Shown here: piece by piece, positions 35,151-49,788 of the stretch
Layout: each line of letters begins with the position of its first letter
How positions within the stretch are numbered: position 1 is the first letter of the stretch
Source: an uncultured Gammaproteobacteria bacterium
Lineage (GTDB): Bacteria; Pseudomonadota; Gammaproteobacteria; SZUA-229
NCBI GenBank assembly: GCA_963924875.1
Contig: CAWUSX010000007.1
Coordinates: forward strand, 1-56,972
Reading direction: 5' to 3'
Length of the DNA stretch: 56,972 nucleotides
Made by a program: the position numbers and the translations under genes
The notes under the pieces: generated by a model
The model's database searches: none
The model's input: only the letters and a program-made list of their open reading frames with translations
Told to the model about the DNA's origin: nothing

Positions 35151-35755
35151 TCAGCGAATTAGATACACAAGTGGAAATAATATAACCCAAACCAGGTAAC
35201 CATATGCCAGTAAGATGCCCCTGTTTCCAGGCCCAGAAGATTATTTTATGAGTAACCACCTTTAGTAGCTTTTAATAACATAGCAGTCAAAATAACCAGG
35301 CCTAGCATTACATGCATATAATGAAAGAAGGTCATTGATAAGTACAAGGTATAAAAAGAATTTGTGCTGAGATTTACCCCTTCACTGTATTTAGAATAGA
35401 ACTCATATGATTTTATAACGATAAATATTAAACCCGTAAGTACAGATGCAGATAACCAGAAAACAGTTTTATTCTTATTATCTCTTTTAGTAGCATTAAC
35501 GGCTTTGACTACAAAAAAGCTACTTGTTAATAGAACAAATGTATTTATTAATCCCAATCTAACATCTAGAGTTAATTGATACTGGTTAAATAACTCTATA
35601 TTATTGCTTCGGGTAATAATATAAGTAATAAAAAAAACACCAAAAACCAGTAGCTCTGCATAAATAAACATCCACACAGCTAAATCACCCGGCAAATCAT
35701 CGGGTAATCTGCCTCTAGTTTCTAAATTTTTTGTTACAGAAGTAGCGATAGTCAT
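35151..35755 (-). pseudogene. norE: NorE-like (cytochrome oxidase subunit III family), in-frame stop plus frameshift
   Basis: LPGDLAVWMFIYAELLVF, NTFVLLTSS, FHYMHV; TAA at 35246-35248, then NNLLGLETGASYWHMV, and a 1-nt deletion near 35198 before DLVWVILFPLVYLIR*. Confidence 0.8.
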
Positions 35756-35867: not shown

Positions 35868-36479
35868 TTAGTAATCTGAATAAATAGCACCGGTCGGACA
35901 TACAGCAACGCAATCGCCGCAACTTGAACAGGCTGTATCTTCAATCAGCCAGTCACCTTCACCAAAGGTAAGTAAACTTGCCGAACCCCGATGAGAACGA
36001 CTGATAACATGACTATCTCTACATGCTCTTATACATCGATCACAATGTATGCATTTTTCCTGAGCTAATTTAATATAATCTGAACTATAACGATTACAAT
36101 CCTTCGGCTTTTGATCATGTAAATAAAAACGTGCAGAATTAACACCCAGCTGACTGGCATATTCACGCACTTGAGTACTTAAGGTTTCTAGCCCGCCATG
36201 TTCTGCAATAATAAATTCCATTAGCACTTTCCTGGCGTTTACTGTTTTCGTACTATGGGTTTGTATTTGCATATTTTTTTCAACTACGGTTGAGCAGGCG
36301 GGCAATAATTTATTATGTCCTTCAATTTCAACCGAACAAATACGACAAACTGAACGCAACTCCAGGCCTGGCAAATGACAAATAGTTGGAATAGATAGAT
36401 GTATTTTTTTTGCCACCTGTAATATAGTTTGGCCCGTCTTAGCCTCAACCTCCCGGTTATTTATGCTAATTTTAATCAT
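35868..36479 (-). CDS. HoxU/NuoG-N-terminal-like Fe-S protein ([2Fe-2S] plus 2x[4Fe-4S])
   Basis: IPTICH...CRICSVE...ACST; CIHCDRCIRAC; CSSCGDCVAVCPTGA; the His/3Cys cluster motif is degenerate (EHGGLETL). Confidence 0.85.
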   Translation of the reverse strand: MIKISINNREVEAKTGQTILQVAKKIHLSIPTICHLPGLELRSVCRICSVEIEGHNKLLPACSTVVEKNMQIQTHSTKTVNARKVLMEFIIAEHGGLETLSTQVREYASQLGVNSARFYLHDQKPKDCNRYSSDYIKLAQEKCIHCDRCIRACRDSHVISRSHRGSASLLTFGEGDWLIEDTACSSCGDCVAVCPTGAIYSDY

Positions 36480-36480
36480 T

Positions 36481-37710
36481 TCACAGGTTCCTGAAATGTT
36501 TTAAATAAGTAATGACAGGAACCGAAGCGGCCTTACCTAAACCACAGCTTGATGTTTGCTGCATGGTTTCACTAACACTATGTAGCCAGTTAATACTGTC
36601 ATCTGTTTCATTTGAATCAAGTAATTGCTGAGAAAATTTACGCAGCTCCTGTGTTCCTACCCGACATGGTGTACAGCGTCCGCATGACTCCTCTTTAAAA
36701 AACTCGGTTGATTTAGACATTTCAAGTAATGGGTCACGAGTACTATTAAATAAACGTATTGTTCCAGAACCAACATGCAAGCCTAACTGACTCAATCCAT
36801 CCACATCATAATTAACATTAATTAATTTTATTGGGACTAAACCGCCAGAGATACCGCCAACTTCAACAAAACTTAAATCTTCAGCCTCAGCCTTAGCAAT
36901 AATATTTTCTAATGAATCACCCATATCAACTTCATAAATACCTGGCAGGCTTACATCACCCAATAAAGTAACTAACTTCGGATGCTTATTTATAAACCGT
37001 TCTGGGGCACTTAAGAGAATCGGAATCCAGCTAAGCGTTTCAACATTATTAATAATTGTCGATTTATTCCATAAGCCTTTTTCATGGGGATAAGGTGGTT
37101 TTAAACGAGGCTCGCCACGCTTTCCTTCAATATAGTTAAGTAATGCAGTTTCTTCACCTACTATATATAAGTCTGGATTAGGACCGTACAAAACATTTAT
37201 TGTTATATTTTTTAAAAACGATTTATTTTCTGAGACGATTTTAGTTAAATTTTCATAAGCCCTTTTATAGGCCGAATTAACAACCAGATATACCTCATTA
37301 ATTTCTAGCAACCTACAGGCAATGGCTATTCCTTCAATCAACAACTGTGGATAATGCAGCATAATATAATAATCTTTAAAGGTATAAGGCTCCCCCTCCA
37401 GGCCATTAACAACAAGATATTCTGGCTTATATGGAACAGCCGCCTGCCATTTTTTAAGCAACGGAATATGTGAACCACCACAACCGCATAAACCACTGGT
37501 ATAAATTAACTTTAAAACCTCTGCATTGCTGAGTTTATTGTTAATTATTTTTTTAAGTTGATTAAAAGCCCCTTCTTTTGAATAATTTTCAAAACTCGAA
37601 ACATTTCTACCTTCAATTTCAATAATCTCTTTTTCTTTAACATAACTTTTTTCTGCTGACTCGTAAAAAGAAGTTACACTATAATTTTGTTTTTTAATTT
37701 CATCTCGCAT
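36481..37710 (-). CDS. NuoF/HoxF-like FMN/[4Fe-4S] oxidoreductase subunit
   Basis: SGLCGCGGSHIP, NGLEGEPYTFKD, YIVGEETALL, PRLKPPYP, NNVETL, GGISGG, ESCGRCTPCRVG...SSCGLG. Confidence 0.88.
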   Translation of the reverse strand: MRDEIKKQNYSVTSFYESAEKSYVKEKEIIEIEGRNVSSFENYSKEGAFNQLKKIINNKLSNAEVLKLIYTSGLCGCGGSHIPLLKKWQAAVPYKPEYLVVNGLEGEPYTFKDYYIMLHYPQLLIEGIAIACRLLEINEVYLVVNSAYKRAYENLTKIVSENKSFLKNITINVLYGPNPDLYIVGEETALLNYIEGKRGEPRLKPPYPHEKGLWNKSTIINNVETLSWIPILLSAPERFINKHPKLVTLLGDVSLPGIYEVDMGDSLENIIAKAEAEDLSFVEVGGISGGLVPIKLINVNYDVDGLSQLGLHVGSGTIRLFNSTRDPLLEMSKSTEFFKEESCGRCTPCRVGTQELRKFSQQLLDSNETDDSINWLHSVSETMQQTSSCGLGKAASVPVITYLKHFRNL

Positions 37711-38611
37711 GTCTGAACCTCTTACTATTCAACAAGGGATTCATTAAATTCATAATTAAAATGGCATACATCTCGATACCTGCAATACTGGTATACATTT
37801 TCCCCAATACAGACAACACAGCCACACCCATACCAAAAATAATTCCACCTTTTATAGTATTTGGTGAGGTTTCTGGCGCGGTCACAAAAAAGAATGCCAT
37901 CAATAAAGTTGGCCCTCCCATTAAGTACACCAGAGGTTCAGACATCCAGGGTGCATGACCAACTATTTCAGCGGTATCTGGTAATAAAAAGACCACAATA
38001 GGTACAGTTAATAACATTGTGATAGTGGCTTCTCTCTTAATCACCACATAACGCAACATTAATCCACCAACAATCAACAATAATAAAGTACTGGTTTCAC
38101 CTATAGAGCCTTTAGTAAAGCCTAAAAATGCATCCCAGTAATGCGGTTGCAACATACCGCCTGCTTCTTTAAATAATAAACTGGCGCCACTGGCTAAATC
38201 TGCATAAGGTATCGGATCGACGTTTTCTAAAATCGCAATGACGGCACGTCCTAAAACAGCCGGATTAAAAACATTACCCAGTTTACCTTTACTCAATGCA
38301 GGCAAAGCCTGCTTGCCAATATACTCCGCAACAAATCCACCAATTATAATCATATAAAATGGCGTTAAAGGACTAAGCGTTAAGCCCATTAGTAAGCCAG
38401 TTATCATGCTGCCCGGATTGAATATTTTTACTACACCATCATTTGACCATTGTATTAACGCACCTGCTAACATTGTGGTTAAAGTCGATAAAAGCAAAAC
38501 AAGAAAGGCATTAACACCAAAATAAATGCTGCCAAAAATAGCCAAGGGCAATAAGAGAATAAAGGTGCTCCATTTTGCACCAAGAGTCAGGCGGATTTCG
38601 TTAATACTCAT
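37700..38611 (-). CDS. Stand-alone RnfD/NqrB-family membrane flavoprotein
   Basis: ITGLLMGLTL, GNVFNPAVLGRA, DLASGAS (flavinylation motif), GSIGETS, AFFFVTAPETSP, YAILIMNLMNPLLN. Confidence 0.88.
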   Translation of the reverse strand: MSINEIRLTLGAKWSTFILLLPLAIFGSIYFGVNAFLVLLLSTLTTMLAGALIQWSNDGVVKIFNPGSMITGLLMGLTLSPLTPFYMIIIGGFVAEYIGKQALPALSKGKLGNVFNPAVLGRAVIAILENVDPIPYADLASGASLLFKEAGGMLQPHYWDAFLGFTKGSIGETSTLLLLIVGGLMLRYVVIKREATITMLLTVPIVVFLLPDTAEIVGHAPWMSEPLVYLMGGPTLLMAFFFVTAPETSPNTIKGGIIFGMGVAVLSVLGKMYTSIAGIEMYAILIMNLMNPLLNSKRFRHAR

Positions 38612-38613
38612 TA

Positions 38614-39162
38614 TCACTCAGCTGACTGCATTTTTTCATGTGGCATAATTTTTCCAGCTTCCTGCCATGGCTTTACTTCTGCAGCTGTGTGGCACTCTAC
38701 ACACTCCACTACAAATGATTTATGGCAGGTTAAACATGATGATGGGTTAATGCTAGCCAGCATAATATGCCTTTCCAGGCCATTACCAGATGGATTGATA
38801 AAATCACTACTATGGCTTTCTGGAATTGTATTATGACAAGATTCACACTCAGTCTTCAAATGACAGGATGCGCAACGCTGGTAGGAAAAGTTTTTTGTTC
38901 TGCCATGAGTATATCGTCGAAACTGCTCATTATGTGATTTAGGCGGCGGAATAAGTAAACCCTGCTTTATATCTTTAACTCCATTTTTTATATGCTCATG
39001 CTGAGAATGACATTGCATACATTTACCATCATTGCGCCATTCATGTACATTATTTTTGATAAAATTATTGCTAATTGCCATTATTACAATACTGATAAGC
39101 AATAGTAAAAACACAAGGTATCGCGGTTTTATAAAATTAAATTTTGTTATTAGCTGCAACAT
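38614..39162 (-). CDS. Membrane-anchored pentaheme c-type cytochrome
   Basis: N-terminal TM/signal; CMQCH, CASCH, CESCH, CLTCH, CVECH; ATG 39162 overlaps the upstream TAA (alternative start 39174). Confidence 0.88.
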   Translation of the reverse strand: MLQLITKFNFIKPRYLVFLLLLISIVIMAISNNFIKNNVHEWRNDGKCMQCHSQHEHIKNGVKDIKQGLLIPPPKSHNEQFRRYTHGRTKNFSYQRCASCHLKTECESCHNTIPESHSSDFINPSGNGLERHIMLASINPSSCLTCHKSFVVECVECHTAAEVKPWQEAGKIMPHEKMQSAE

Positions 39163-39800
39163 TATTTTATGCATCTGAAACCAATATCAAAACTTCTATA
39201 TTCCGGTTCTCGGTTAACATAAGCCTTAATGCTAACCCCTGATGGGCTACTATTTGAACTGCCACCAACAACACGCTTTTCTTCTACCCACTCTGCAACA
39301 TTACCGGCCATATTTAAAACATTATAAGGTGATGCCCCTTTATCAAATGATTTAGACGGGGCAGAATAAGTATAACCATCGTTTTCTGCCCATTTCTCAC
39401 CACCCGTATTCGCTTTTTTATAATCCCATTGGTTACCCCAGGGCCAGATTCGCCCATCTGAATTACCAGCAAATCTCATCCACTGGGCATGTGTCGGCAA
39501 TTTCTGGCCACGCCATTTACAATACGCATTTGCAGAATACCAGCTCACACCAACAACAGGATGATCTGGTTTTTTAAATGTATCTTGATTAAAAGGCGCT
39601 AAGCTTGCGGCGACTGAGTTTATAAAAAAAGATGAGCGATACTCTTTCCAGTACCTGGGTAGCTTATGTTCAGGATGTGCAGCAATAAATTCTGCATAAG
39701 CCTTATTAGTCACTTCAATAATATCTATATTTTGGACTGTATCTGCCTGTGCAACAAATGAACGGATCAACATCATTAAAACAAAACAGAAACGTAACAT
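39162..39800 (-). CDS. Exported FGE-sulfatase (SUMF1/NirV-like) domain protein
   Basis: Signal peptide (AQA), EVTNKAY, HPVVGVSWYSANAYCKW, WPWGN, NMAGNVAEW, IGFRC; no FGE catalytic CxxxxC. Confidence 0.87.
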   Translation of the reverse strand: MLRFCFVLMMLIRSFVAQADTVQNIDIIEVTNKAYAEFIAAHPEHKLPRYWKEYRSSFFINSVAASLAPFNQDTFKKPDHPVVGVSWYSANAYCKWRGQKLPTHAQWMRFAGNSDGRIWPWGNQWDYKKANTGGEKWAENDGYTYSAPSKSFDKGASPYNVLNMAGNVAEWVEEKRVVGGSSNSSPSGVSIKAYVNREPEYRSFDIGFRCIK

Positions 39801-40870
39801 TATTGATGCCCCCTGGTTAAAGTATCCCAGCCTATAGAACGAGTCACACTACTATTATCATCAATAATTAAAGCTTCAATATTGTCTTTGCCATTCACCC
39901 AACGCATTCCATTGATTGCACCTTTAACAGATACTGCTGTTGCATAGGCATCTGCAAGTGCTGCATCTTTAGTTAAAATGGTAACACTTTGGGTGCCGCT
40001 GGCTGGTTTACCCGTTTTTGGATTTATAATATGACTATAGCGTTTACCCTTATGCATAAAGTACCGCTGACTATCACCCGAAGTTGCCACAGAATAGTCA
40101 GCTATTGAGAACTGCTCAATTATCTGCCCTTTCCAACGGGGATTTTCAATATTGATATTCCAGGGTCCAGTTGATTTTTTCCCCATTAGATAAACATCTC
40201 CACCCGCACTAACTGCTGCATTTTTTATTCCCATCTCACGAAATATATTAATAGCCAGCTCGGCTGCATAACCTTTACCAATACCACCAAAATTTATTTT
40301 CATGCCTTCGGGTATTTTAACTTTCATTTCGGATTGATTTAATTCAATTTTATCTGTTCCCACAAACTGTAATTGCTGCTTTATTTCTTTGTCACTGGGC
40401 AAGACTACTGTTTTATCGCGAAAAGGATACAAATCCCAGACAGAGCCTATAGTCACATCAAAATCACCAGCTGTATTATCAAAAGCCTGTTTCGATAACA
40501 GTAATAAACTCATCGTTTGCTGACTTACCTTAATCCATTTACCTGATTGTTGATTTAGAAGAAACACATCACTACCAGGTTTCCACGAGCTTATTTTCGA
40601 CTCAAGCGCTAATAAATCGTCTGTTATTTTTGTTATTGCCTGAAGTGCTAGTTTTTTTGGGGCATCAACAACAAAAATAAACTGTGAGCCCATTAAAACT
40701 ACTTCACGTTTGGTTAATTTAGATGAATTACTGTGTGAAAATTCATAAATAGGCTTTTTAATGATATTTTCATCTAAGTGCTGTATTTTGTTCACTGTCT
40801 TTTCTCTATGCATAACACCATAAACTAAAGACAAACTAACAACGACAATGAATACTAGCCACTTTTTCAT
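39800..40870 (-). CDS. apbE: FAD:protein FMN transferase ApbE
   Basis: FDVTIG, FGGIGKGYA, AGGDV, ATSGD, YSHIINPKTG, ADAYATA. Confidence 0.93.
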   Translation of the reverse strand: MKKWLVFIVVVSLSLVYGVMHREKTVNKIQHLDENIIKKPIYEFSHSNSSKLTKREVVLMGSQFIFVVDAPKKLALQAITKITDDLLALESKISSWKPGSDVFLLNQQSGKWIKVSQQTMSLLLLSKQAFDNTAGDFDVTIGSVWDLYPFRDKTVVLPSDKEIKQQLQFVGTDKIELNQSEMKVKIPEGMKINFGGIGKGYAAELAINIFREMGIKNAAVSAGGDVYLMGKKSTGPWNINIENPRWKGQIIEQFSIADYSVATSGDSQRYFMHKGKRYSHIINPKTGKPASGTQSVTILTKDAALADAYATAVSVKGAINGMRWVNGKDNIEALIIDDNSSVTRSIGWDTLTRGHQ

Positions 40871-43800
40871 TATTCAATTACCTTCATAAAATTAAGCAGG
40901 TCTTCTATTTGCCCAGGTCTTAAATGTGATGTACCACCATGTGAATCAATGACTCTGTTTTGTTTATCTAAATCACCTTTTAATGTTCTTTCTGTTAATT
41001 CATTAAAACCAATCTCTTTTCTATCTTTTCTTACAACCTCATCACCTATCATGACTGGCATTAAGAATTTTCTTGCTGCCGGATGTTCAGGTGTTAGTAA
41101 AACTTCACGCAATGATCTGGCACGAGCATGATGTAGGAAAACGGGAGGCCTATCAAAAATGCCGCGTAGTGTCATTGTGGTAAATGAACCTTCTTTTTCT
41201 TCAAATCGTCCCTTATCTTCATGTTTTAAGCCTAGTGGATCTCCATTTGCTGTTTCAACTGCGAAGACACTCGCCAGCGAGTATGAAGCATCTCGCCTTG
41301 TCATAGTGGTTAATTGCGGCAATGCACGCCGATCATTATTTGCAAGTAGTTGGGTTTTATTTGTGAACTCAGGTGAGGTATGGCATACCCCACACATAAC
41401 CTGTGCTGAATTAAATAACTGCTTACCCCGTTTTACGGAAGGATGCTGTTTATCAAATGGTGTTGGCAATAAGCGATTTTCATGCCCCATCCATGCTGCT
41501 AAAAATGGATAAAATTCGGCTAAAGAATATGCTTTATTGAAATATTTTTTTGACTGGGCTTTGAAAAACTCATTACGTCTATGCTCAAGGTCATACCATT
41601 TTTTACCCAACTTATTAACTTCAACGCGTTCTTTTAATTCTTCATGCATTAAACGTCTTTTATTATCGGCTACAGGTGAAACCAACTGACTGTAATCGCC
41701 TGCCCATACTGGCCTGTCAAAATCAATAGAACTAGCAGGTTCATTAATGTCGGCACCTTGCCCCTCTTCAAGAATATGCGTGCCTTCAAAATAATAAGGC
41801 TGAATAGCAAAAATATTTTTTATTTGCGGAATTCCAAGTGTTCCACCTGGTGTTAAATGCCCCCATTTATTCTGCCCCACTACCTCTGCTGCACCCCAGG
41901 CACGGCCATCACCTGTATCACGATAATGACAGTGTGAACATGAGGTATCGCCATCAGAACTAAAAACGGTTGAATGAACAACCACATCACCACGCTCTGC
42001 ATCGGTTGCAATGGCAGGTAGTGTTAAGTCGCCTACAATAATCTCTGAATTATTTTCAGGATTAGTCAAATCAATAATGGAGATGGTTTCACTCATCTGA
42101 TTTGCAACAAATAATTTATTATTCGCAGCAGTAATGCCTATTGGTCTGAAACCCACATTAAATTTTCGTAGTGGAATAAGTCGATCTGATGGTTCATCAG
42201 GATTGTGCTTTATCTGCCATTCAATAATTTCAAATGTACCCGACATACTCACATAAAGTTTGTCCGCAAGTGTCACGGACCATTCTGGAAATGACCCGGG
42301 AACTCGTTGCAGTTCTGGCGGTATATCACCTTTAACATCTCCTGTAGTGGCTTCAGCTGTATCGGAGGTGTACCTTACCCAGTTTTTATGTGATTCATAT
42401 TTATTGGTTTTAAGAAAGTAATCAGGTGAACTATTTTCAGAAATAGATTTGAAGTCAATCGAAGTTAAATCAATCGCAATGATATCATTTTGAATATCAC
42501 GCATTTTGAAATTCCATGTCCCATCAACTGCGTCAAAATCACCCATTATAAACTGTTTATCAATAGGATAAGCGTCATAGCCCTGGCTGGGGTCTCTTAA
42601 TACAGTATACTGAGCTGCCGGGTTATTTTTATCCCAACTTTCAGCGCCATATGGATCACGTTCTTTGCTTGCACCAAAACCCGCACCCATGGTAAACACC
42701 ATTAAGGTGTCGTCTTTTATCATTAAATGGCTGGCAACATTTCCAATATAAATACTACCTATGAGTTTGTTTGTTTGCGTGTCAATTACCGCCACATCCA
42801 TAGTTCCAGTATTGCCTACAAACAAATAACGATCATATAGTGCTAAATCTTTTGGATGAGACTGTTCATTACCTACCGGTATTCCTGGGCCGCCATAACC
42901 CTGCTCAATCCATTTAACTATTTTTTCTAAATCATTATCGCCTTTTTCAAACAGGACACCACCAGGGTGAAATTCTGCTGTAATTTTTTCATCACCAAAT
43001 CCACCCATATCTTTTGGCAATACAGCTCTTAGCAAAGGACTATTATAGGCATCACCACCAATTGAATTTGCAACTGCAGATAAAAAGTTTTGCTTGATAT
43101 CAGGGCCAGAAATAAATCCACCTGCTGCTGCATTATGACAAGGTGCACACTTTGATCTTAAAATAGCATTAATACCCTGTGAACTGTGCTGTTTGGCTTT
43201 TTCTATTTGTTTATCCGTAAATCCTCGAATATATAAATCATTAAGAGTTTGTTTAGAAATGGCGCTATTACCATAAAACACTTCATCATTGAAACCACCC
43301 TGTACATTAATTTTTCCATAAAGATGATTATCTGTTTCAACTATATCAATTACCAGAACCTGATCTAAATATCGATTTGCAAGCCATGCCTTGTTACCAT
43401 CTTTAGAAAATTTAATATCTTGAGCATAATAATCAAGCTCAATAATATTCACGACTTCATCTAACCGGGTATCAATAACTGAGGCATAATTTGAAAATTC
43501 ATTTGTTACAACGAGAAATTTACCACCTGGGTGTAACACTGATGTATAAGGTCTACTGCCTACTTCAATGCGCTTAATGACTTTATTTGTTTTTAAATCC
43601 ACCACCGCGAGTTTATTCTGTGGATTATTTTCAGTTCCTTGCAAAGTAACATATAACTTAGTTGCCTCTTTATTAAGCGTAACACGCGTGGGTTTATCAC
43701 GATGCGGCTGTTTCGTCTGCAGAGGAACGTTATTTGAAACCGGCGTTAAATCATGCGCTTTAAATTTACTTTTATAGCGCCACACCGAGGATGTCAATTT

Positions 43801-43896
43801 ATCAAATGCAGAGCCATAATAAATCTGTTCGGCAAAACTAAAATCGCAAAAACCTATTAAGATCAGGATAATGTATATTGTTTTATTTTTATGCAT
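40870..43896 (-). CDS. Exported YVTN beta-propeller plus MauG/CcP-like cytochrome c (3 CxxCH), HzsB/HzsC-like layout
   Basis: Sec signal (SFA); propeller blades (IEVGSRPY, VGNTGTMDVAVIDT, VGFRPIGI..LFVANQMSETISIIDL); CAPCH, CSHCH, CGVCH; RGKQLF and TLRGIFDRPPVFLHH..ARSLREVL resemble CcP/MauG elements. Confidence 0.75.
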   Translation of the reverse strand: MHKNKTIYIILILIGFCDFSFAEQIYYGSAFDKLTSSVWRYKSKFKAHDLTPVSNNVPLQTKQPHRDKPTRVTLNKEATKLYVTLQGTENNPQNKLAVVDLKTNKVIKRIEVGSRPYTSVLHPGGKFLVVTNEFSNYASVIDTRLDEVVNIIELDYYAQDIKFSKDGNKAWLANRYLDQVLVIDIVETDNHLYGKINVQGGFNDEVFYGNSAISKQTLNDLYIRGFTDKQIEKAKQHSSQGINAILRSKCAPCHNAAAGGFISGPDIKQNFLSAVANSIGGDAYNSPLLRAVLPKDMGGFGDEKITAEFHPGGVLFEKGDNDLEKIVKWIEQGYGGPGIPVGNEQSHPKDLALYDRYLFVGNTGTMDVAVIDTQTNKLIGSIYIGNVASHLMIKDDTLMVFTMGAGFGASKERDPYGAESWDKNNPAAQYTVLRDPSQGYDAYPIDKQFIMGDFDAVDGTWNFKMRDIQNDIIAIDLTSIDFKSISENSSPDYFLKTNKYESHKNWVRYTSDTAEATTGDVKGDIPPELQRVPGSFPEWSVTLADKLYVSMSGTFEIIEWQIKHNPDEPSDRLIPLRKFNVGFRPIGITAANNKLFVANQMSETISIIDLTNPENNSEIIVGDLTLPAIATDAERGDVVVHSTVFSSDGDTSCSHCHYRDTGDGRAWGAAEVVGQNKWGHLTPGGTLGIPQIKNIFAIQPYYFEGTHILEEGQGADINEPASSIDFDRPVWAGDYSQLVSPVADNKRRLMHEELKERVEVNKLGKKWYDLEHRRNEFFKAQSKKYFNKAYSLAEFYPFLAAWMGHENRLLPTPFDKQHPSVKRGKQLFNSAQVMCGVCHTSPEFTNKTQLLANNDRRALPQLTTMTRRDASYSLASVFAVETANGDPLGLKHEDKGRFEEKEGSFTTMTLRGIFDRPPVFLHHARARSLREVLLTPEHPAARKFLMPVMIGDEVVRKDRKEIGFNELTERTLKGDLDKQNRVIDSHGGTSHLRPGQIEDLLNFMKVIE

Positions 43897-43898
43897 TA

Positions 43899-46800
43899 TC
43901 AAAATACGCCTTTATAAGTCGCGCCTATATCTATCCAGCGAATTAACATCAAAAGATCTTTATCATCAAGGTAGTTGTGATCTTTAGTCATTAACTTGTC
44001 AATTAATGGACTTTGAGATGACAGTGCTTCACGTTCATTAATGTATTTTTTATCCGCAAAATCATGACTCTGAGGATCACGTAATTGATGCAAGCTTTCA
44101 TATGCCTGATTATAGTGACGTGTTTTTAACTCACTTAAATTCAGCCCCCCACCACTATGACACTTAACACAATGTTTATTTAAAATAGGCTGAATATCCT
44201 TAACAAAATCGATCGAGATATAATCAGTTAATTTTTTTCCTTTAGCTGAAGGTGAGCGTCGTTTTTGTTCCTGTTTATTCCAGGTCGCTACCACCTTAGA
44301 TGCCTCAGTTACAATATCAGCCGGACCTATTCCCTGCATAGGTTCACGGGTTAATGAACCATGACAACCTCCACAGGTACTAACAAATTTGCTTCTTGGT
44401 ATAGAAAGGGTAAATCGTTCTCCTGGCTGAGTATAAAACATACGTTGCAAGGTAAGTAGCGCACGTTTATCTTTATCTAATGCCTGCACTATCCATGCAA
44501 CATTTGCTGGTACCTCCACATATATAGAACTATCCGACTCTAAAGCCACCTCACCAAAAATAAGTTTTTTAGTATGCACTCCCTTACTCACCGCAGTTGC
44601 AAATGGATCGTCATCACTAATATTTTGCGTATCTTGCTTTGTTAATGGAAATACGCCAATTGCCCGAACATACTTGATTATGCCTTTAGGCAAAATATTT
44701 CTTTTACCCGTTTGTGTAAAATTTGTTAAAAATGCTGCCAGTAAATCAACGTCATACACTTCAATTTCTGCTGGCGTATTTGTTGGCATACGTTTCACAC
44801 CATCTACTACTTCTGGTTTGAGTCCATGTACAAATTTTTGATGTTTCAGAGGATGATGTCGATTTTCATGCAAACGAATAACTACGGGTCTTGGATTGTA
44901 TTCGGCTGCATCTGTTGAAATTTTATCTAAACGTGTTTTTTTATAAGTTCCAATTTGATGCCGATCTTCTGCCTGCAATGATGCATCAAAATTTATTCGA
45001 TAAATATCCCAGTCCGGATCTGCATTTTTATCTAAATGATCTAATTTATTTGTTACATGAGAAACTAAAATGGAACCATCAACTAATGGATAAGGGTCAC
45101 GATAGGCCCCCGCTTCAGATACACCGGTATGATTGATATTTTTATCAAACACCACCATCTCAGATATGTAACGAGGTAAGGATGAAAAATCAACCTCATT
45201 ATATTTTTCTGTTAGTGGAATATCATCCATCGGATTATTAGCTTCAGTGGATGAACCAAAGCCATGATCGACTAATGCCAACTGACCTCCACCCCAGTAA
45301 TTTCGCGGGTCTTGTAATATTTTAACTTCAAGACCTTGCGGCATTTCTCGTGCATCAGTGTGCAGTGCATATTGAGAACGCTCACCCCCATGGGGATGGA
45401 AATCAAAACCGCCTGCCTGCATGCGAAATATTGCCCCATTAAAAATCGGTTTATCATCTTGATATCCCAGGTTACGCACTGATGTCGCCATCACTTCGCC
45501 ACTGGTTCTTACCGTAGGCTTGCGCTCCTGATTAAAGCCCCAGGTCATTCGTCTATTACTTTCTTTAAATGAACCCGGTTTAAAACGCCAGATATCGTAA
45601 GCCGATGAATAATTTCTCTGTGGCTGCTCTATAACATAAATACTATTTATATCCAAAGCATGGGGTAAGGCTTTATCGAGTATTAATTTATTCTTAGTGT
45701 GCTTTATAATTTTCCGCCACAATCCTTTATTGGGACCTTTCACAAAGCTCAGTTTTAAATTGGTAAACGTACCCGCTTTTTCATGCCGCTGTTTATCCGT
45801 TATAATTGTCTTCGATGGATTGTCAGTATTATCCACCTCGCCAATAATCCCCCATGGCTCGGACGCAACATAATCACCTACCACATTACTTGCATAGCTA
45901 ATAAAAACGTCACTCAGATCATAGCCCTGATGATTATCTAGAGAATAATTAGGTGTATAGACAGGATCAATATGATGAACAACATCATCTTTTTTATCTG
46001 TAGCCGTACTAAGTTGCTTTATTTCTTTTGATTCTAAATCTATTTCAAAAATTCTAAATCCTGTATCTCTACTATGCCTCTTAGAAAAAACAATTTTCCT
46101 TGCATCATAACTGACATCAAGCGACTGAATTTCCTCATTTTTAAAGAATGTAACTTGACTTTCACTTACGCCATCAAAAAAGTAAATATTAGAACCAGGA
46201 TAAAACTCATCAAATGAAAAATATTTACGTGGCATATGACGCGGTCCACGGATAAATACAATACCTTTTTCATCACCTGGCAGGTCATTCAGCAATGGTT
46301 TCCCTTGAATGGTTAAATTCTTAAATAAATCATCTCTTTCCATTGCCATCCATTGCAATATTTTTTTTACATCGACATCATCATAGTTTTCAAAAAACTG
46401 ATTATTACCGCCGCGCTGATGCACACCACCTGACTCTATGGGTATATTTTTAACTAATACACGACTGAGTTTTAAATCACCACCTAAATTAACTAGACGC
46501 GTTAAATCACCTAGAACGGATGCTTTATTCTTACTTGTCATTTCATTAGAAAATTCCCCATTGGGTAATGGAGGTAATAATTTGAGATCGGTAAACGAAG
46601 CAGGTCCATGACAGGAAGATAAGAAACAACTATTTCTCACCAGAGCGGGTTGAACTTCATCTTTAAAAAACTGAGTAGAAGCAGATAGGGATTTTTGTTT
46701 TTCGGGATGTTCTGAAATTTCCTTATTCAGCCACTCCAGCATAAGCTGATAGTCTGTATCATCGGTTGAATAAAATATATCCAGGCCTTTATGTGCAACA

Positions 46801-47165
46801 CCACCATATTCTTCTGTTAATGGCGACCTTACAATATGACTGAATTCTGCAGCTTCACCATATTCTACCCGGCGATGACTAATTGCTACCTTATAGGCAA
46901 GCTCACTATCTGAAATTTTATTCTGAGTTGTTATAGGAAAATAAAAATAATTCTTATTTTCTCCCAACATATAATCACTATAGGCATCCGCATTTATACC
47001 ATGACAAGAAAGACATCTATTCTCAAGAACAGGTACAACCTTATCTTTAAAAAAAGCCTGGCTTGCTGATTTATTGCTCATAAAATTTAGCACACTATCG
47101 CAGCCGTTTAGCATAAAACAGCTGCAAACAACTAATATATAATTAATAGTGATATTAAATTTCAT
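43899..47165 (-). CDS. Multiheme lipoprotein resembling hydrazine synthase alpha subunit (TolB-like propeller, HZS-alpha middle domain, 4 heme motifs)
   Basis: Lipobox LNGC; CLSCH, CFLSSCH, CGGCH, CVKCH; VSYDARKIVFSKR; AYRDPYPLVDGSILVS; VALESDSSIYVEVPANVAWIVQALDKDKRA..QPGE; FVKDIQPILNKHCVKCH...WIDIGA. Confidence 0.72.
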   Translation of the reverse strand: MKFNITINYILVVCSCFMLNGCDSVLNFMSNKSASQAFFKDKVVPVLENRCLSCHGINADAYSDYMLGENKNYFYFPITTQNKISDSELAYKVAISHRRVEYGEAAEFSHIVRSPLTEEYGGVAHKGLDIFYSTDDTDYQLMLEWLNKEISEHPEKQKSLSASTQFFKDEVQPALVRNSCFLSSCHGPASFTDLKLLPPLPNGEFSNEMTSKNKASVLGDLTRLVNLGGDLKLSRVLVKNIPIESGGVHQRGGNNQFFENYDDVDVKKILQWMAMERDDLFKNLTIQGKPLLNDLPGDEKGIVFIRGPRHMPRKYFSFDEFYPGSNIYFFDGVSESQVTFFKNEEIQSLDVSYDARKIVFSKRHSRDTGFRIFEIDLESKEIKQLSTATDKKDDVVHHIDPVYTPNYSLDNHQGYDLSDVFISYASNVVGDYVASEPWGIIGEVDNTDNPSKTIITDKQRHEKAGTFTNLKLSFVKGPNKGLWRKIIKHTKNKLILDKALPHALDINSIYVIEQPQRNYSSAYDIWRFKPGSFKESNRRMTWGFNQERKPTVRTSGEVMATSVRNLGYQDDKPIFNGAIFRMQAGGFDFHPHGGERSQYALHTDAREMPQGLEVKILQDPRNYWGGGQLALVDHGFGSSTEANNPMDDIPLTEKYNEVDFSSLPRYISEMVVFDKNINHTGVSEAGAYRDPYPLVDGSILVSHVTNKLDHLDKNADPDWDIYRINFDASLQAEDRHQIGTYKKTRLDKISTDAAEYNPRPVVIRLHENRHHPLKHQKFVHGLKPEVVDGVKRMPTNTPAEIEVYDVDLLAAFLTNFTQTGKRNILPKGIIKYVRAIGVFPLTKQDTQNISDDDPFATAVSKGVHTKKLIFGEVALESDSSIYVEVPANVAWIVQALDKDKRALLTLQRMFYTQPGERFTLSIPRSKFVSTCGGCHGSLTREPMQGIGPADIVTEASKVVATWNKQEQKRRSPSAKGKKLTDYISIDFVKDIQPILNKHCVKCHSGGGLNLSELKTRHYNQAYESLHQLRDPQSHDFADKKYINEREALSSQSPLIDKLMTKDHNYLDDKDLLMLIRWIDIGATYKGVF

Positions 47166-47196
47166 AAAAACTCTTTTGCCATTTATAAAAATTAAC

Positions 47197-47355: not shown

Positions 47356-48507
47356 TTATTCACAATAAATCTTACCGCTATTGTATAAATCTACAATAAG
47401 TAACATTTCTGTCTTACTTGCTAAATTCACAATTTCATTAATATTGAGCTGCCTTTGTTTGCATAACAATCGAGCAAACTCCAGAGCAACTTCATAATCT
47501 TCACCATCAACAAATAACAACGCATCGTTTGCATTTTCAGAAAAAGCAAATCGACTTGCCGGATGCCGACTTAAAGTAGTTGTTTTTGCCAGTTCTTGTA
47601 ATTCGTCAACGGAGCATAACTTCTGCTCGGGTGCGATTAATACATCTGCTTTGGTATCACTAACAAAGCGCCCAAACCAACGTTTCAACTCAGGGTGCTC
47701 TGGTTGTAAATATTCTTTAAATATTTCAGTTATACGCTGAAGAGCATCCGGCTTTATTTCATTAGAATATTCCTGAATTTTCTGCTCAGGATCATGATAG
47801 GTTAAATCTGTTGACAGGTTTTGCGTTATGTAACCAATAAACTCATTTACAATATCTGCATGACTGGTAGCACGAAAACCAATGGAATAACTTAAACTTT
47901 CACCCAATGACACACCATAATGTTGAATTCCAGGGGGTAAATAAAGCATATCACCTGGTTCCATTATCCACTCTTCTTCGGATTCAAAATCTTTTTGAAT
48001 TCTTAATGGTGTTTCTTTTACCTGATTATCCTCAGACACGGGCTGGCTATTTATTTGCCAACGACGTTTACCCTCGCCCTGCATAATAAATACATCATAT
48101 AAATCGATATGCGGCCCAACAGAACCCTGGTCTGCTGCATAGCTAATCATTAAATCATCCAGTCGCCACTCTGGAATAAAACGAAAACTATCAATAATCC
48201 ATGAAAGCTCTGGTATGTATTTTTCTAAATCATTAACAATCAACGACCAATGCGTTTTTGGCATAGATGCATATATTTCATCACTCATCGGACCAAACAT
48301 GGGAAACCAGGGATAGTCACCATCTTTTTCCATAACGATGCGAGAATTAACTTCCTCTTCACAGGCAAGACCAGCTAATTCATCTGCGCTAATAGGAGTT
48401 TTAAAATCGGCAAAAGCCTGACGTATCAGTAAAGGCTTTTTCTGCCAGTACTCATCCATAAAGGTTTTTGCCGACATATTACCCAGTGGGTTAATTATTT
48501 CTTTCAT
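47356..48507 (-). CDS. roxA: JmjC/cupin ribosomal protein uL16 arginine hydroxylase
   Basis: YWQKKPLLIR, WRLDDLMISYA, SVGPHIDLYDVF, EPGDMLYLPPG..HYG, YSIGFRA. Confidence 0.9.
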   Translation of the reverse strand: MKEIINPLGNMSAKTFMDEYWQKKPLLIRQAFADFKTPISADELAGLACEEEVNSRIVMEKDGDYPWFPMFGPMSDEIYASMPKTHWSLIVNDLEKYIPELSWIIDSFRFIPEWRLDDLMISYAADQGSVGPHIDLYDVFIMQGEGKRRWQINSQPVSEDNQVKETPLRIQKDFESEEEWIMEPGDMLYLPPGIQHYGVSLGESLSYSIGFRATSHADIVNEFIGYITQNLSTDLTYHDPEQKIQEYSNEIKPDALQRITEIFKEYLQPEHPELKRWFGRFVSDTKADVLIAPEQKLCSVDELQELAKTTTLSRHPASRFAFSENANDALLFVDGEDYEVALEFARLLCKQRQLNINEIVNLASKTEMLLIVDLYNSGKIYCE

Positions 48508-48622
48508 AACACGAATCTCATTGCGTATATTTACAAAACTGCCTGCATACACAAATTCCAGCGTTAAAAAATGCCATGATTTAAATACAAAACAGAGAAG
48601 ATATGATTTTTATAAGCAAAAC

Positions 48623-48680
48623 TTGCTAGCGCTTAAATATAATAAATTTTGCATACTTTATTATATTTAAGCGCTAGCAA
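48623..48680. repeat. Perfect 24-bp inverted repeat with 10-nt loop
   Basis: TTGCTAGCGCTTAAATATAATAAA / TTTATTATATTTAAGCGCTAGCAA, 17 bp downstream of the TauD-like stop. Confidence 0.9.
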
Positions 48681-48697
48681 ATCACTTTACATAATGA

Positions 48698-49618: not shown

Positions 49619-49774
49619 ACAAAAAACCTCATGTAGCAATATTTTAGACAAAAATCGAACTCGACACTTTAAGAACGCAAAAGGTTTCAGTCGTTGATCA
49701 AGCACAAGAAAAAGGGAAAATAAGCACTGAATAGCACTATTTCAGGGGTGTTATCGCGCCTGAAAGCATCTGAT

Positions 49775-49788
49775 TTGATTCATATCAA
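49775..49788. promoter_or_regulatory. FNR/DNR box upstream of the TauD-like gene
   Basis: Perfect TTGAT-TCAT-ATCAA. Confidence 0.7.

What the first reader, a model, noticed from the sequence alone, without database searches (positions are those of the whole stretch)
35868..47165. Candidate new redox system: hydrazine-synthase-like multiheme pair wired to a stand-alone RnfD and a NuoF/HoxU module
Seen: eight co-oriented, visibly AT-rich genes with TAATG overlaps (40870, 39800, 39162), a short overlap or 1-2 nt gaps. Order: HZS-alpha-like lipoprotein (4 heme motifs), propeller+MauG-like protein (3), ApbE, FGE/NirV-like, pentaheme cytochrome (5), RnfD, NuoF-like, HoxU-like. Known: anammox hydrazine synthase is built from alpha (propeller, middle domain, hemes), beta (propeller) and gamma (MauG/CcP-like diheme); ApbE flavinylates RnfD; NuoF/HoxU pairs couple NAD(H) to Fe-S chains. 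Inference: a self-contained wire NAD(P)H <-> NuoF/HoxU <-> FMN-RnfD <-> pentaheme <-> periplasmic HZS-like enzyme in a non-anammox bacterium. Its position between norEF-like genes and dnr/nir hints at N-oxide chemistry (NO, hydroxylamine, N-N bonds), but the substrate is unknown. I do not recognise this combination as a named system.
Basis: partly seen in the sequence, partly recalled or inferred. Interest (0 to 1): 0.93.

Follow-up and report, generated by a model that had tools for sequence, protein, structure and literature searches.

The report
NADH-wired hydrazine-synthase-like heme enzyme cluster
Eight neighbouring genes encode a periplasmic heme enzyme related to the anammox hydrazine synthase together with its own electron cable to cytoplasmic NAD(P)H; the set is conserved across several bacterial phyla, its chemistry is untested, and I found no description of it in print.

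Summary
Eight co-oriented, tightly packed minus-strand genes (35868-47216) encode an HzsA-like lipoprotein (4 c-heme motifs), a propeller plus di-heme HzsB/C-like fusion (3), ApbE, an FGE-like protein, a membrane-anchored pentaheme cytochrome, an RnfD/NqrB homologue, a NuoF-like flavoprotein and a HoxU-like Fe-S protein. Hydrazine synthase alpha is the best solved relative of the first protein by sequence profile (E 3.8e-25) and by predicted fold (E 7.4e-25; next hit 6e-8). All eight functions lie in one locus in 13 of 34 related loci, in Pseudomonadota, Myxococcota, Cloacimonadota and unclassified MAGs. Most of the other 21 are cut by contig ends. RnfD-NuoF, RnfD-NuoF-HoxU and ApbE-FGE occur as single fused proteins elsewhere. 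A second variant uses RnfC and RnfG instead. Best reading: an Rnf-derived, quinone-independent wire carries NAD(P)H electrons to a periplasmic HZS-like reductase. The substrate is unknown; NO or hydroxylamine is only a weak favourite. It is not a hydrazine synthase in the strict sense, because defining residues and curated score thresholds are not met. The nir/nor neighbourhood is not conserved. Six literature searches found no description of this module.

The parts
43899..47165 (-). Gene A: HzsA-like periplasmic lipoprotein. The ORF runs to 47216; the likely start is M18 at 47165, with lipobox LNGC. It has an extra N-terminal di-heme domain (C68xxCH, C197x4CH), then a propeller, the HZS_alpha middle domain, and hemes at C948xxCH and C1016xxCH.
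   Evidence: Family alignment invariants. Profile against PDB: 5c2v_A at E 3.8e-25, collinear. AF2 model pLDDT 71.6. Foldseek top hit 5c2v_A at E 7.4e-25, TMt 0.55.
40870..43902 (-). Gene B: HzsB/HzsC-like fusion. It has a signal peptide and a YVTN beta-propeller interrupted by a cytochrome c insert (C252xxCH). Its C-terminal di-heme domain is of the CcP/MauG/HZS-gamma type (C655xxCH, C837xxCH). The start is TTG at 43902 or ATG at 43896.
   Evidence: Profile against PDB: 5c2v_B at 4.6e-22 and 5c2v_C at 2.4e-8, collinear. AF2 propeller is confident; the C-terminal domain is below pLDDT 50. Foldseek top hit 5c2v_B at 1.5e-13, tied with a generic YVTN propeller.
39800..40870 (-). Gene C: ApbE FAD:protein FMN transferase with an N-terminal signal or anchor.
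   Evidence: PF02424 at 1.3e-75. N-terminus read. Fused to the FGE-like domain in 11 other loci (Pfam-checked in L033).
39162..39800 (-). Gene D: secreted short FGE-sulfatase-fold protein of 212 aa.
   Evidence: PF03781 at 8.3e-31, covering profile positions 39-191 of 255. Signal peptide read. Best solved relatives are CalU17 and formylglycine-generating enzymes, about 1e-14.
38614..39174 (-). Gene E: pentaheme c-type cytochrome with one N-terminal transmembrane helix.
   Evidence: Five CXXCH motifs. All five are invariant in 14 of 14 aligned homologues, along with four further invariant His. No convincing solved relative; best E 4e-4.
37700..38617 (-). Gene F: stand-alone RnfD/NqrB-type membrane flavoprotein. 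Predicted flavinylation site is S146 within D140-LASGAS.
   Evidence: PF03116 at 1.2e-46. Profile against PDB: RnfD 7zc6_D at 2.6e-45. Acceptor Ser/Thr conserved in 26 of 26 sequences. Motif [S/T]GA[S/T] taken from PMC8238504.
36481..37710 (-). Gene G: NuoF-like NAD(P)H-binding FMN and [4Fe-4S] protein, cytoplasmic.
   Evidence: PF01512 at 1.3e-35 and PF10589 at 2.7e-23. Best solved relative NuoF 6q9c_B at 2.2e-62. C343xxCxxC...C389. Fused to RnfD in 11 loci and 16 database clusters.
35868..36479 (-). Gene H: HoxU/NuoG-N-terminal-like Fe-S protein. It has one [2Fe-2S] motif (Cys 34, 45, 48, 62) and two CxxCxxCxxxC motifs.
   Evidence: (HoxU NF005745 at 2.2e-43, below cut-off). Fused to RnfD in L030 and to RnfD-NuoF in P0115 and P0117.
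47356..49705 (-). Lineage-specific upstream genes in the same orientation: a TauD-family gene (49705..48698) and a JmjC-family gene (48552..47356), both Fe/2-oxoglutarate oxygenases. They may be co-transcribed with the cluster.
   Evidence: TauD homologues lie near the cluster in L008, L010 and L011 only; JmjC in L008 only.
49775..49788 (.). Perfect Crp/Fnr-type palindrome TTGATTCATATCAA, 70 bp upstream of the TauD-family start codon.
   Evidence: 9 matches with up to 1 mismatch in the window against 4.4 expected; 2 are perfect. A perfect box lies 83 bp upstream of the TauD homologue in L008. Among the other 39 loci the only perfect box is in L048, 1.5 kb upstream of B; L019, L033 and L036 have only one-mismatch matches.
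35246..35755 (-). Downstream co-oriented COX3/NorE-like membrane protein (30.8% G+C). Not part of the conserved set.
   Evidence: No syntenic homologue in other loci.

Best explanation
The eight genes form one conserved redox module made of two halves.

Half 1 is a transmembrane electron wire derived from the NADH side of an Rnf complex. NAD(P)H is oxidised at the FMN of the NuoF-like protein. Electrons pass through its [4Fe-4S] cluster and the [2Fe-2S] and two [4Fe-4S] clusters of the HoxU-like protein. NuoF and HoxU together stand in for RnfC. The electrons then enter the RnfD-type membrane protein. Its FMN is attached covalently to Ser146 by the ApbE encoded in the cluster and sits towards the periplasmic face. 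From there the electrons reach the membrane-anchored pentaheme cytochrome, which stands in for RnfG.

Half 2 is a periplasmic catalytic pair homologous to anammox hydrazine synthase: an alpha-like lipoprotein with four c-hemes, and a beta-gamma fusion with three c-hemes. The FGE-fold protein is a periplasmic maturation or accessory factor.

The net effect is quinone-independent delivery of low-potential electrons to a periplasmic heme active site, helped by the membrane potential. The substrate is not known. My favourite, at about 0.3, is a small nitrogen oxide: NO or hydroxylamine, as at heme gamma-I of hydrazine synthase.

Shown: gene content, homologies, co-conservation, fusions, cofactor motifs. 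Inferred: subunit contacts, direction of electron flow, role of the FGE-like protein, substrate.
For: Domains and motifs.

HZS homology:
- A-family profile against PDB: only HZS alpha is significant (3.8e-25; three collinear stretches over propeller, middle domain and C-terminal heme domain).
- Fold search: 5c2v_A at 7.4e-25 against 6e-8 for the next fold, TolB.
- B-family profile: HZS beta at 4.6e-22 and HZS gamma at 2.4e-8, collinear. Gamma is the best hit of the di-heme domain; the next CcP is at E 0.47.

One system:
- The order A-B-C-D-E-F-G-H with all eight functions is present in 13 of 34 variant-1 loci, from Gammaproteobacteria, Myxococcota, Cloacimonadota and unclassified MAGs. Two more lack only an ApbE hit.
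- B is 54-60% identical to the window protein in other phyla.
- In 5 of 5 genomes where A has no adjacent B, B is kept on another contig. In two of these it is followed by ApbE, and in one of them also by FGE.

Wire:
- RnfD and NuoF lie in one ORF in 11 of the 17 loci that hold both (Pfam-checked in 3).
- 16 database clusters carry PF03116+PF01512+PF10589. Two of them also carry the HoxU domains.
- RnfD-HoxU is fused in L030.
- A second variant of 7 loci pairs the HZS-like genes and the multiheme protein with RnfC-like, FMN_bind (RnfG-like) and RnfD genes.
- The review PMC12174285 (passages) states that the RnfC flavin domain is related to NuoF, and that its two [4Fe-4S] clusters bridge to the RnfD riboflavin.
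- The flavinylation acceptor is conserved in 26 of 26 sequences. ApbE is in the cluster.

Nitrogen-oxide lean:
- The only characterised relative of A and B acts on NO, hydroxylamine and ammonium (PMC12758564, sections read).
- NnrS was among the most frequent flanking families, tied at 4 of 121 scanned flank ORFs with HGD-D, FGE-sulfatase and PAS domains. The four NnrS genes lie in L010, L017, L037 and L040, in two phyla, two of them fused to DUF1858.
- A perfect Crp/Fnr box stands ahead of the gene string here and in L008.
- Heme d1 genes are next door in this genome.
Against: No binding, activity or expression data exist.

The nitrogen link is weak:
- The nir, Crp/Fnr and NorE neighbours have no credible counterpart in any other locus. 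The only hit was a 28% NorE match in L008.
- NnrS is common in relatives without the cluster (28 of 41), so genome-level co-occurrence (14 of 18 carriers) says nothing.
- The Fnr box is not found upstream of the cluster in most other loci.

Many carriers are aerobic marine heterotrophs by their record titles (Agarilytica, Ketobacter, Maribacter, Fuerstiella). That fits an oxidative-stress role as well.

HZS-specific residues are not met (see membership test), so chemistry cannot be transferred from HZS.

Two Planctomycetota loci lack NuoF next to the cluster; one of them lacks HoxU too. NAD(P)H is therefore not the universal donor.

The model of B's catalytic domain was unusable (pLDDT below 50).
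Confidence: 0.55

Rival explanations
1. Same complex, opposite direction. The periplasmic HZS-like enzyme oxidises a very low-potential substrate, and the wire delivers the electrons inward to reduce NAD(P)+. This would spare reverse electron flow in sulfur-oxidising autotrophs.
For: Rnf and its RnfC-RnfD half are reversible (PMC12174285 abstract and passages). The window's organism is a Thiotrichaceae-like bacterium, judged from record titles of its closest loci. PMC8238504 notes that the direction of such wires could in principle be reversed.
Against: Moving electrons inward works against the membrane potential, so it needs a donor well below NAD+/NADH (inference). The cluster is also found in Myxococcota, Planctomycetota and heterotrophic Gammaproteobacteria, which have no obvious need for this. 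No candidate donor is suggested by the neighbouring genes.
Confidence: 0.13
2. A periplasmic peroxide or oxidative-stress system, or a protein-maturation system. B's di-heme domain would act as a CcP (H2O2 reduction fed by NADH). Alternatively it would act as a MauG/MbnH-type enzyme that, with the FGE-like protein, modifies A or another protein.
For: B has weak CcP_MauG (PF03150, 17.3 bits) and MbnH-family (TIGR04039, 5.7e-5) matches. FGE-fold proteins are often protein-modifying enzymes (names of solved relatives). Carriers include aerobes. Hemerythrin/PAS and hemerythrin ORFs lie nearby in L009 and in the window.
Against: The best solved match of the di-heme domain is HZS gamma, not a CcP (2.4e-8 against 0.47). 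B keeps an HZS-beta-like propeller and is always paired with an HzsA-like protein. B is more conserved than A across phyla (54-60% against 40-48% identity), as expected of a catalytic subunit rather than a chaperone. A dedicated twelve-heme, NADH-fed chain is heavy for a maturation step (inference).
Confidence: 0.12
3. The same wire feeds a reductase for a non-nitrogen acceptor, such as sulfur, selenium, arsenic or halogen oxyanions or metals, or an extracellular electron-transfer chain.
For: A is a lipoprotein. Further multiheme cytochromes (MtrC/MtrF-like; c554/NapC-like) lie beside the cluster in L017 and L020, and a homologous ORF lies in L035. PMC10732223 (passages) proposes that HZS-like enzymes form a wider family acting on alternative substrates.
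Against: No outer-membrane porin-cytochrome genes or metal-related genes are conserved in the flanks. The extra cytochromes occur in 3 of 41 loci only.
Confidence: 0.15
4. The eight genes are neighbours by chance and do not work together.
For: None beyond the lack of direct experimental data.
Against: The order is conserved across phyla (13 complete loci). Overlapping or 1-2 nt-spaced reading frames. Three kinds of natural fusion.
Confidence: 0.02

Closest known systems
Anammox hydrazine synthase HZS-alpha/beta/gamma (Kuenenia stuttgartiensis, PDB 5C2V)
   Same: A shares the propeller, middle domain and C-terminal heme domain with HZS alpha, in the same order. B combines a beta-like propeller with a gamma-like di-heme domain, like the fused beta-gamma of Scalindua described in PMC12758564. 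Both proteins are periplasm-type c-heme proteins.
   Different: - Identity is about 15%, and scores are far below the NCBIfam equivalog cut-offs.
- A has an extra N-terminal di-heme domain of about 300 residues, including an invariant CX4CH.
- B has an extra cytochrome c insert.
- There is no Tyr after the alpha-I-type motif (CGGCHGSLT).
- There is no conserved Cys for a third heme link in the gamma-like domain.
- The gene order is alpha then beta-gamma.
- It is wired to NAD(P)H through RnfD.
- The hosts are not anammox bacteria.
Non-anammox HZS alpha plus beta-gamma homologue pairs, clades I-IV of Hagglund et al. 2025 (PMC12758564), and hzs-like genes of Phycisphaerae/KSB1 (PMC10732223)
   Same: An alpha-like gene lies directly upstream of a fused beta-gamma-like gene. 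HZS key residues are not conserved. Function is unknown.
   Different: The published clades I-III are flanked by FG-GAP/CRTAC1 and ABC-binding-protein genes. They have 8, 0 or 1 extra hemes on beta-gamma, and clades II-III lack the alpha-II heme. Here alpha-II is kept. The flanks are ApbE, FGE, pentaheme, RnfD, NuoF and HoxU. That paper's text holds no 'ApbE', 'NuoF' or 'sulfatase', and 'Rnf' appears only in its reference list. Whether this family falls in their clade IV cannot be told, because the supplements are closed.
Rnf complex (RnfABCDGE), especially its RnfC-RnfD-RnfG branch and the Methanosarcina Rnf with a multiheme cytochrome
   Same: RnfD homologue with a conserved flavinylation site, plus ApbE. 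The NuoF-like flavoprotein plus two [4Fe-4S] clusters play the part of RnfC (review passage). A multiheme cytochrome attached to an Rnf is known in M. acetivorans. Variant-2 loci use true RnfC-like and RnfG-like genes.
   Different: There are no RnfA, B, E or G genes in the cluster, so a ferredoxin branch and ion pumping are not expected. RnfD scores below the TIGR01946 cut-off (105 against 207 bits).
Nqr/Rnf-like flavinylation-associated systems of Meheust et al. 2021 (PMC8238504) and the 2024 follow-up (PMC10979944)
   Same: A cut-down RnfD-based, one-way wire from cytosolic NAD(P)H to an extracytosolic acceptor, found beside apbE.
   Different: Their system has RnfD fused to an FNR-type NAD-binding domain (PF00175) plus an RnfG-like subunit, and it lacks the RnfD flavinylation Thr. 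Here the donor module is NuoF+HoxU, the periplasmic partner is a pentaheme cytochrome, and the RnfD site is conserved.
NAD(H)-linked diaphorase modules NuoF/NuoG(N-terminus) and HoxF/HoxU
   Same: G aligns over its full length with NuoF (2.2e-62). H aligns with the N-terminal Fe-S module of NuoG, HoxU, FdhA and HydA.
   Different: No NuoE/HoxE partner gene is in the cluster. H has no Cys/His set for the His-ligated cluster. Both proteins score below the equivalog cut-offs. The module is docked, and often fused, to RnfD instead of to a hydrogenase or complex I.

Membership tests
Hydrazine synthase (anammox HZS) | Alpha-subunit architecture: propeller, middle domain, C-terminal heme domain | tested here: met
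   Profile hit to 5c2v_A at 3.8e-25, collinear. Foldseek 7.4e-25, TMt 0.55. PF18582 at 41.7 bits, above the 26.6 cut-off.
Hydrazine synthase (anammox HZS) | Beta propeller plus gamma di-heme CcP-like subunit | tested here: inconclusive
   Profile hits to 5c2v_B (4.6e-22) and 5c2v_C (2.4e-8), collinear. However, a generic YVTN propeller scores higher (1.6e-40), and the AF2 model of the gamma-like domain is below pLDDT 50.
Hydrazine synthase (anammox HZS) | Heme alpha-I ligated by Tyr591, four residues after the motif His, which binds Zn instead (feature as described in PMC12758564) | tested here: not met
   The collinear motif reads C948-G-G-C-H952-G-S-L-T956, with T956 invariant and no Tyr. 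The assignment of this motif to alpha-I rests on collinearity only.
Hydrazine synthase (anammox HZS) | Third covalent heme link through gamma-Cys165 (PMC12758564) | tested here: not met
   No invariant or nearly invariant Cys lies between the two heme motifs of the gamma-like domain in 17 aligned sequences.
Hydrazine synthase (anammox HZS) | NCBIfam equivalog scores | tested here: not met
   Alpha 35.1 bits against 800. Beta 64 against 560. Gamma 24.5 against 625. Beta-gamma fusion 50.8 against 1250.
Hydrazine synthase (anammox HZS) | Hydrazine production from NO and ammonium; partner hydrazine dehydrogenase | not testable with these tools
   An HAO-family multiheme gene (PF13447, 8.6e-43) exists elsewhere in the genome, but that family is broad.
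Rnf complex | Six subunits RnfA, B, C, D, G, E encoded together | tested here: not met
   Only an RnfD homologue is in the cluster. TIGR01946 scores 105.1 bits against a cut-off of 207.
Rnf complex | ApbE-flavinylated Ser/Thr in RnfD ([S/T]GA[S/T], PMC8238504) | tested here: met
   SGAS at residues 143-146. The acceptor is conserved in 26 of 26 sequences, and the strict motif in 15 of 26. It aligns with TTAT of solved RnfD 7zc6_D. Flavin attachment itself was not tested.
Nqr/Rnf-like system (Meheust 2021) | RnfD fused to a PF00175 NAD-binding domain, with an RnfG-like partner | tested here: not met
   No PF00175 or FMN_bind domain is found in the eight proteins. The fusions found are to NuoF and HoxU domains.
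Complex I NuoF / bidirectional hydrogenase HoxFU diaphorase | Equivalog-level similarity and a NuoE/HoxE partner | tested here: not met
   TIGR01959 scores 260.8 bits against 558.65. HoxU NF005745 scores 148.3 against 333. No NuoE-like gene is among the eight.
Bacterial di-heme cytochrome c peroxidase / MauG | Pfam CCP_MauG above gathering score | tested here: not met
   PF03150 scores 17.3 bits against 25.6. The best CcP in PDB has E 0.47.

The most novel reading that the evidence does not exclude
This is a previously unrecognised nitrogen-cycle enzyme. It would be a NAD(P)H-driven periplasmic relative of hydrazine synthase that reduces NO to hydroxylamine, or forms or cleaves N-N bonds, outside anammox bacteria. 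It would operate in marine sediment bacteria, including giant sulfur bacteria (Thiomargarita, Parabeggiatoa), Myxococcota and Planctomycetota, possibly together with the HAO-family cytochromes found in 14 of 23 carrier genomes.
Probability: 0.15. Interest if true: 0.95.

Novelty: new variant of a known kind. Interest (0 to 1): 0.72.

Why it matters
Hydrazine synthase has long been treated as an enzyme without relatives. Recent papers show distant alpha and beta-gamma pairs in other bacteria but give them no partners and no function.

This cluster gives one such family a complete, conserved electron supply: NAD(P)H, flavins, Fe-S clusters and twelve c-hemes. It also gives a dedicated flavin transferase and an FGE-fold accessory protein. 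The enzyme becomes testable, because the donor is known and only the acceptor has to be screened.

The cluster also shows a new way of building a quinone-independent wire across the membrane. It uses the NADH half of Rnf, with NuoF/HoxU swapped in for RnfC and a pentaheme cytochrome swapped in for RnfG.

If the acceptor proves to be NO or hydroxylamine, this would add a new reaction route to the marine nitrogen cycle in organisms that matter there.

Tried and rejected
- Complex prediction of RnfD (alignment A5) with the pentaheme cytochrome (A6): no answer (score 0.01). It is not used as evidence either way.
- The look-up of sequencing runs on 37700-47216: no RNA holder is listed. There are five DNA holders in two studies, and one holds 95% of the words and may be the source sample.
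- AF2 of B: the C-terminal 380 residues are below pLDDT 50. No active-site reading of the gamma-like domain was possible.
- Genome-level co-occurrence with NnrS was rejected as evidence: 14 of 18 carriers against 28 of 41 relatives.
- HAO-family (PF13447) co-occurrence: 14 of 23 carriers over the cut-off, against 8 of 41 relatives, two of which are carriers. The two groups differ in phylum and genome size, so this is kept as a lead only.
- Own genome (69% complete): the only Cytochrom_D1 hit is the NirF-like gene of the window. No nirS was seen, which is no evidence of absence. There are three COX1-family genes.
- Fnr-box search upstream of the cluster in other loci: L008 has a conserved perfect box. 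L048 has one perfect box 1.5 kb upstream of B. L019, L033 and L036 have only one-mismatch matches. The rest have none.
- The protein-atlas search on the N-terminal domain of A gave only generic cytochrome-like clusters.
- The pentaheme profile against PDB gave nothing convincing.
- The flank survey found no conserved neighbour beyond an extra FGE-like gene between B and C in 6 loci and the variant-2 Rnf genes.
- Supplementary files of PMC12758564 and PMC8238504 could not be seen. They may list this family or these clusters.

Full report
WHAT IS THERE.

The window is contig C7 of a 2.0-Mb, 69%-complete genome. Its closest loci carry titles of Thiotrichaceae and unclassified Gammaproteobacteria MAGs.

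On the minus strand between 47216 and 35868 lie eight ORFs with 1-nt TAATG overlaps, a 4-nt overlap or 1-2 nt gaps. Pfam and NCBIfam give:
- A, 1105 aa: HZS_alpha middle domain plus cytochrome c.
- B, 1010 aa: YVTN propeller plus weak CcP/MauG/MbnH matches, and below-threshold hits to hydrazine_beta, hydrazine_gamma and the beta-gamma fusion model.
- C: ApbE.
- D: FGE-sulfatase fold.
- E, 186 aa: weak cytochrome c7.
- F: NQR2_RnfD_RnfE.
- G: Complex1_51K plus NADH_4Fe-4S.
- H: Fer2_4 plus two 4Fe-4S motifs, HoxU-like.

Further details:
- A begins most likely at M18 with a lipobox. The gene on record is 1088 aa.
- B and D have signal peptides.
- E has one N-terminal membrane helix and five CXXCH motifs.
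- G and H have no signal sequence and carry the expected Cys motifs.
- The cluster has 37.4% G+C against 44.4% for the rest of the window.

HOMOLOGY TO HYDRAZINE SYNTHASE.

About 100 homologues of A at 40-78% identity are in the protein collection. Sources name them 'hypothetical', 'mono/diheme cytochrome c family protein' or, once, 'HzsA-related protein'.

In an alignment of 14 of them, C197-x4-C202-H203, C948xxCH and C1016xxCH are invariant, and C68xxCH is nearly so.

The profile of this alignment finds one significant solved structure. It is hydrazine synthase alpha (5c2v_A, E 3.8e-25), matched in three collinear stretches that cover the propeller, the middle domain and the C-terminal heme domain. 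An AlphaFold2 model (mean pLDDT 71.6) has 5c2v_A as top fold match (E 7.4e-25, TM 0.55 on the target). The next fold, TolB, is at 6e-8.

The profile of 17 B-family sequences matches HZS beta (4.6e-22) and HZS gamma (2.4e-8) in the right order. The two heme motifs face each other. Gamma is the best match of the di-heme domain. The propeller part, however, matches a generic YVTN propeller even better. The AF2 model of B is good for the propeller only.

Features that define the anammox enzyme, as described in PMC12758564 (sections 7 and 8 read), are not met:
- There is no Tyr four residues after the alpha-I-type motif (CGGCHGSLT).
- There is no conserved Cys for a third heme link.
- NCBIfam scores are far below the equivalog cut-offs.

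A and B are therefore true but distant relatives of HZS. They are not a hydrazine synthase in the strict sense.

ONE CONSERVED MODULE.

A scan of 185,579 species genomes returned 50 loci. Nine are distant paralogues (23-38% identity over partial matches) with none of the other genes. The other 41 hold orthologues of A.

In 34 of these (variant 1, which includes the window's clade in the tree), the order is A-B-ApbE-FGE-pentaheme-RnfD-NuoF-HoxU:
- 13 loci hold all eight functions.
- 2 lack only an ApbE hit.
- 2 Planctomycetota loci lack NuoF. One of them lacks HoxU too, and its next gene is a U32 peptidase.
- 11 are cut by contig ends.
- 6, from Thiomargarita, Parabeggiatoa and Thiotrichaceae MAGs, have A without an adjacent B.

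In 5 of 5 of those last genomes that I searched, a B orthologue (56-73% identity) lies on another contig. In two of them it is followed by ApbE, and in one of those also by FGE.

Seven loci (variant 2; Acidobacteriota, Bacteroidota/Maribacter, Myxococcota, Planctomycetota) have B-A-multiheme. These are followed by an RnfC-like gene (RnfC_N, Complex1_51K, SLBB, Fer4), an FMN_bind (RnfG-like) gene, a small ORF and RnfD.

Apart from an extra FGE-like gene between B and C in six loci, no flanking gene is conserved. The module is therefore self-contained.

In the A tree the phylum labels need 8 changes where 5 is the minimum. Within the window's genus the cluster was seen in 3 of 12 genomes (G000 and G005, plus a contig-end fragment in G002). 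The distribution is therefore patchy.

The profile of A finds 142 representatives at E <= 1e-30 and 3348 at E <= 1e-3 among 1.84 billion. This is a small family inside a large HZS-alpha-like superfamily.

THE WIRE.

RnfD and NuoF are one reading frame in 11 of the 17 loci that hold both. Three were checked with Pfam.

The large protein collection holds 16 clusters with PF03116+PF01512+PF10589. Two of them, of 1013 and 1029 aa, also carry the HoxU-type 2Fe-2S and 4Fe-4S domains. L030 has an RnfD-HoxU fusion. These fusions argue that F, G and H form one complex.

The F-family profile matches solved RnfD (7zc6_D, 2.6e-45). Its SGAS lies opposite the TTAT of RnfD. The acceptor Ser/Thr is kept in 26 of 26 sequences, and the strict [S/T]GA[S/T] motif of PMC8238504 in 15 of 26. 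An ApbE gene is part of the set, and in 11 loci it is fused to the FGE-like domain.

A review of Rnf/Nqr (PMC12174285, passages) makes three relevant points:
- The RnfC flavin domain is related to NuoF.
- Its two [4Fe-4S] clusters bridge to the riboflavin of RnfD.
- The Methanosarcina Rnf carries an extra multiheme cytochrome.

Variant 2 uses real RnfC and RnfG genes. From these points I infer that this is the NADH half of an Rnf complex. NuoF+HoxU replace RnfC, and the pentaheme cytochrome replaces RnfG. The pentaheme's five CXXCH motifs are invariant in 14 of 14 aligned sequences and present in 22 of 26 locus ORFs. There are no RnfA, B or E genes, so there is no reason to expect a ferredoxin branch or ion pumping.

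Contacts between E and F, and between E and A or B, are inferred only.

WHAT IT DOES.

The most economical reading is reductive. Cytoplasmic NAD(P)H electrons, helped by the membrane potential, reach a periplasmic heme active site without passing through the quinone pool.

The substrate is open. Evidence that leans towards NO or hydroxylamine:
- The chemistry of the only characterised relative.
- NnrS genes next to the cluster in four loci of two phyla. Two of them are fused to DUF1858. NnrS tied with HGD-D, FGE-sulfatase and PAS domains as the most frequent family among 121 flank ORFs.
- A perfect Crp/Fnr palindrome 70 bp ahead of the co-oriented TauD-JmjC-A...H string here, and 83 bp ahead of it in the closest relative.
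- Heme d1 biosynthesis genes (nirE-like, a NirF-like d1 protein, four NirD/L/G/H-type genes, a radical-SAM gene) and a Crp/Fnr regulator next door.

Evidence against:
- None of these nir/regulator/NorE neighbours recurs credibly in any other locus.
- NnrS is common in relatives lacking the cluster.
- The Fnr box is mostly missing elsewhere.
- Many carriers look like aerobic heterotrophs.

I therefore put the N-oxide substrate at about 0.3. The rivals stay open: the reverse direction, a peroxidase or MauG-like role, or another acceptor.

WHAT IS KNOWN.

- PMC10732223 (passages) reported hzs-like genes in Phycisphaerae and KSB1 and suggested a wider enzyme family.
- PMC12758564 (abstract, sections 7-8 and term searches) described four clades of co-located alpha and beta-gamma homologues with other neighbours. 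Its text never mentions ApbE, NuoF or sulfatase.
- PMC8238504 and PMC10979944 (passages) catalogue flavinylation-linked wires, including an Nqr/Rnf-like one. That one is built differently: RnfD fused to an FNR-type domain, an RnfG partner, and no RnfD flavinylation site.
- Full-text searches for combinations of hydrazine-synthase-like terms, PF18582, RnfD, NuoF, ApbE, NnrS, FGE and the sulfur-bacteria names gave nothing closer.
- Supplementary tables were closed, so a listing there cannot be excluded.

VERDICT.

The module is a new variant that combines two known kinds: HZS-like heme enzymes and Rnf-derived flavin wires. It is conserved across at least five named phyla and has no known function. 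I give it interest 0.72: high for bioenergetics and nitrogen-cycle specialists, but the exciting part, the chemistry, is still untested.

Noticed in passing
G000:C41:728-1423 (own genome, outside the window): An HAO-family multiheme cytochrome gene (PF13447, 8.6e-43, ORF of 483 aa). The same family is found in 14 of 23 other carrier genomes and in 8 of 41 relatives. This is a possible partner for hydroxylamine chemistry, but the family is broad.
   Followed up: partly
window 32718-33393 (+): Two overlapping ORFs of 123 and 105 aa. The second has a hemerythrin domain (1.6e-7). They may be a split or two-part hemerythrin/RIC-type gene. In L009 a hemerythrin+PAS_10 gene lies directly upstream of the cluster.
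   Followed up: no
window 49775-49788, 51062-51075 and 50728-50741: Two perfect Crp/Fnr-type palindromes and one with a single mismatch. They lie ahead of the TauD-family gene, in the regulator-nirE intergenic region, and ahead of the regulator gene itself.
   Followed up: partly
window 6042-12979 (-): A gene string with two ATP-synthase alpha/beta-family proteins (520 and 518 aa) and small ORFs between them. It looks like a second, N-type or atypical F-type ATPase operon.
   Followed up: no
protein P0104: A 1393-aa metagenomic protein carries the HZS_alpha middle domain together with NPCBM and FGE-sulfatase domains. This is an independent link between the FGE fold and HZS-alpha-like proteins.
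   Followed up: no
L006 (G011:C3) and L007 (G023:C17): Relatives of the window's organism encode other proteins of about 1000 aa with weak similarity to the HZS_alpha middle domain (E about 2e-4). The wider superfamily therefore has several paralogous lines in these bacteria.
   Followed up: no
L020 20670-22067 and window 23066-25339: A U32-family peptidase gene directly follows RnfD in the Fuerstiella locus, where NuoF and HoxU are missing. A 757-aa U32-family gene also lies about 10 kb from the cluster in the window. This may be coincidence.
   Followed up: no
L017 3771-5699, L020 8514-9965, L035 53-580: Homologous extra multiheme cytochromes lie beside gene A in three loci. They have MtrC/MtrF-like domains or c554/NapC-like motifs.
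   Followed up: partly
window 35246-35755 (-): The NorE/COX3-like gene just downstream of the cluster has only 30.8% G+C, the lowest of the genes measured.
   Followed up: no
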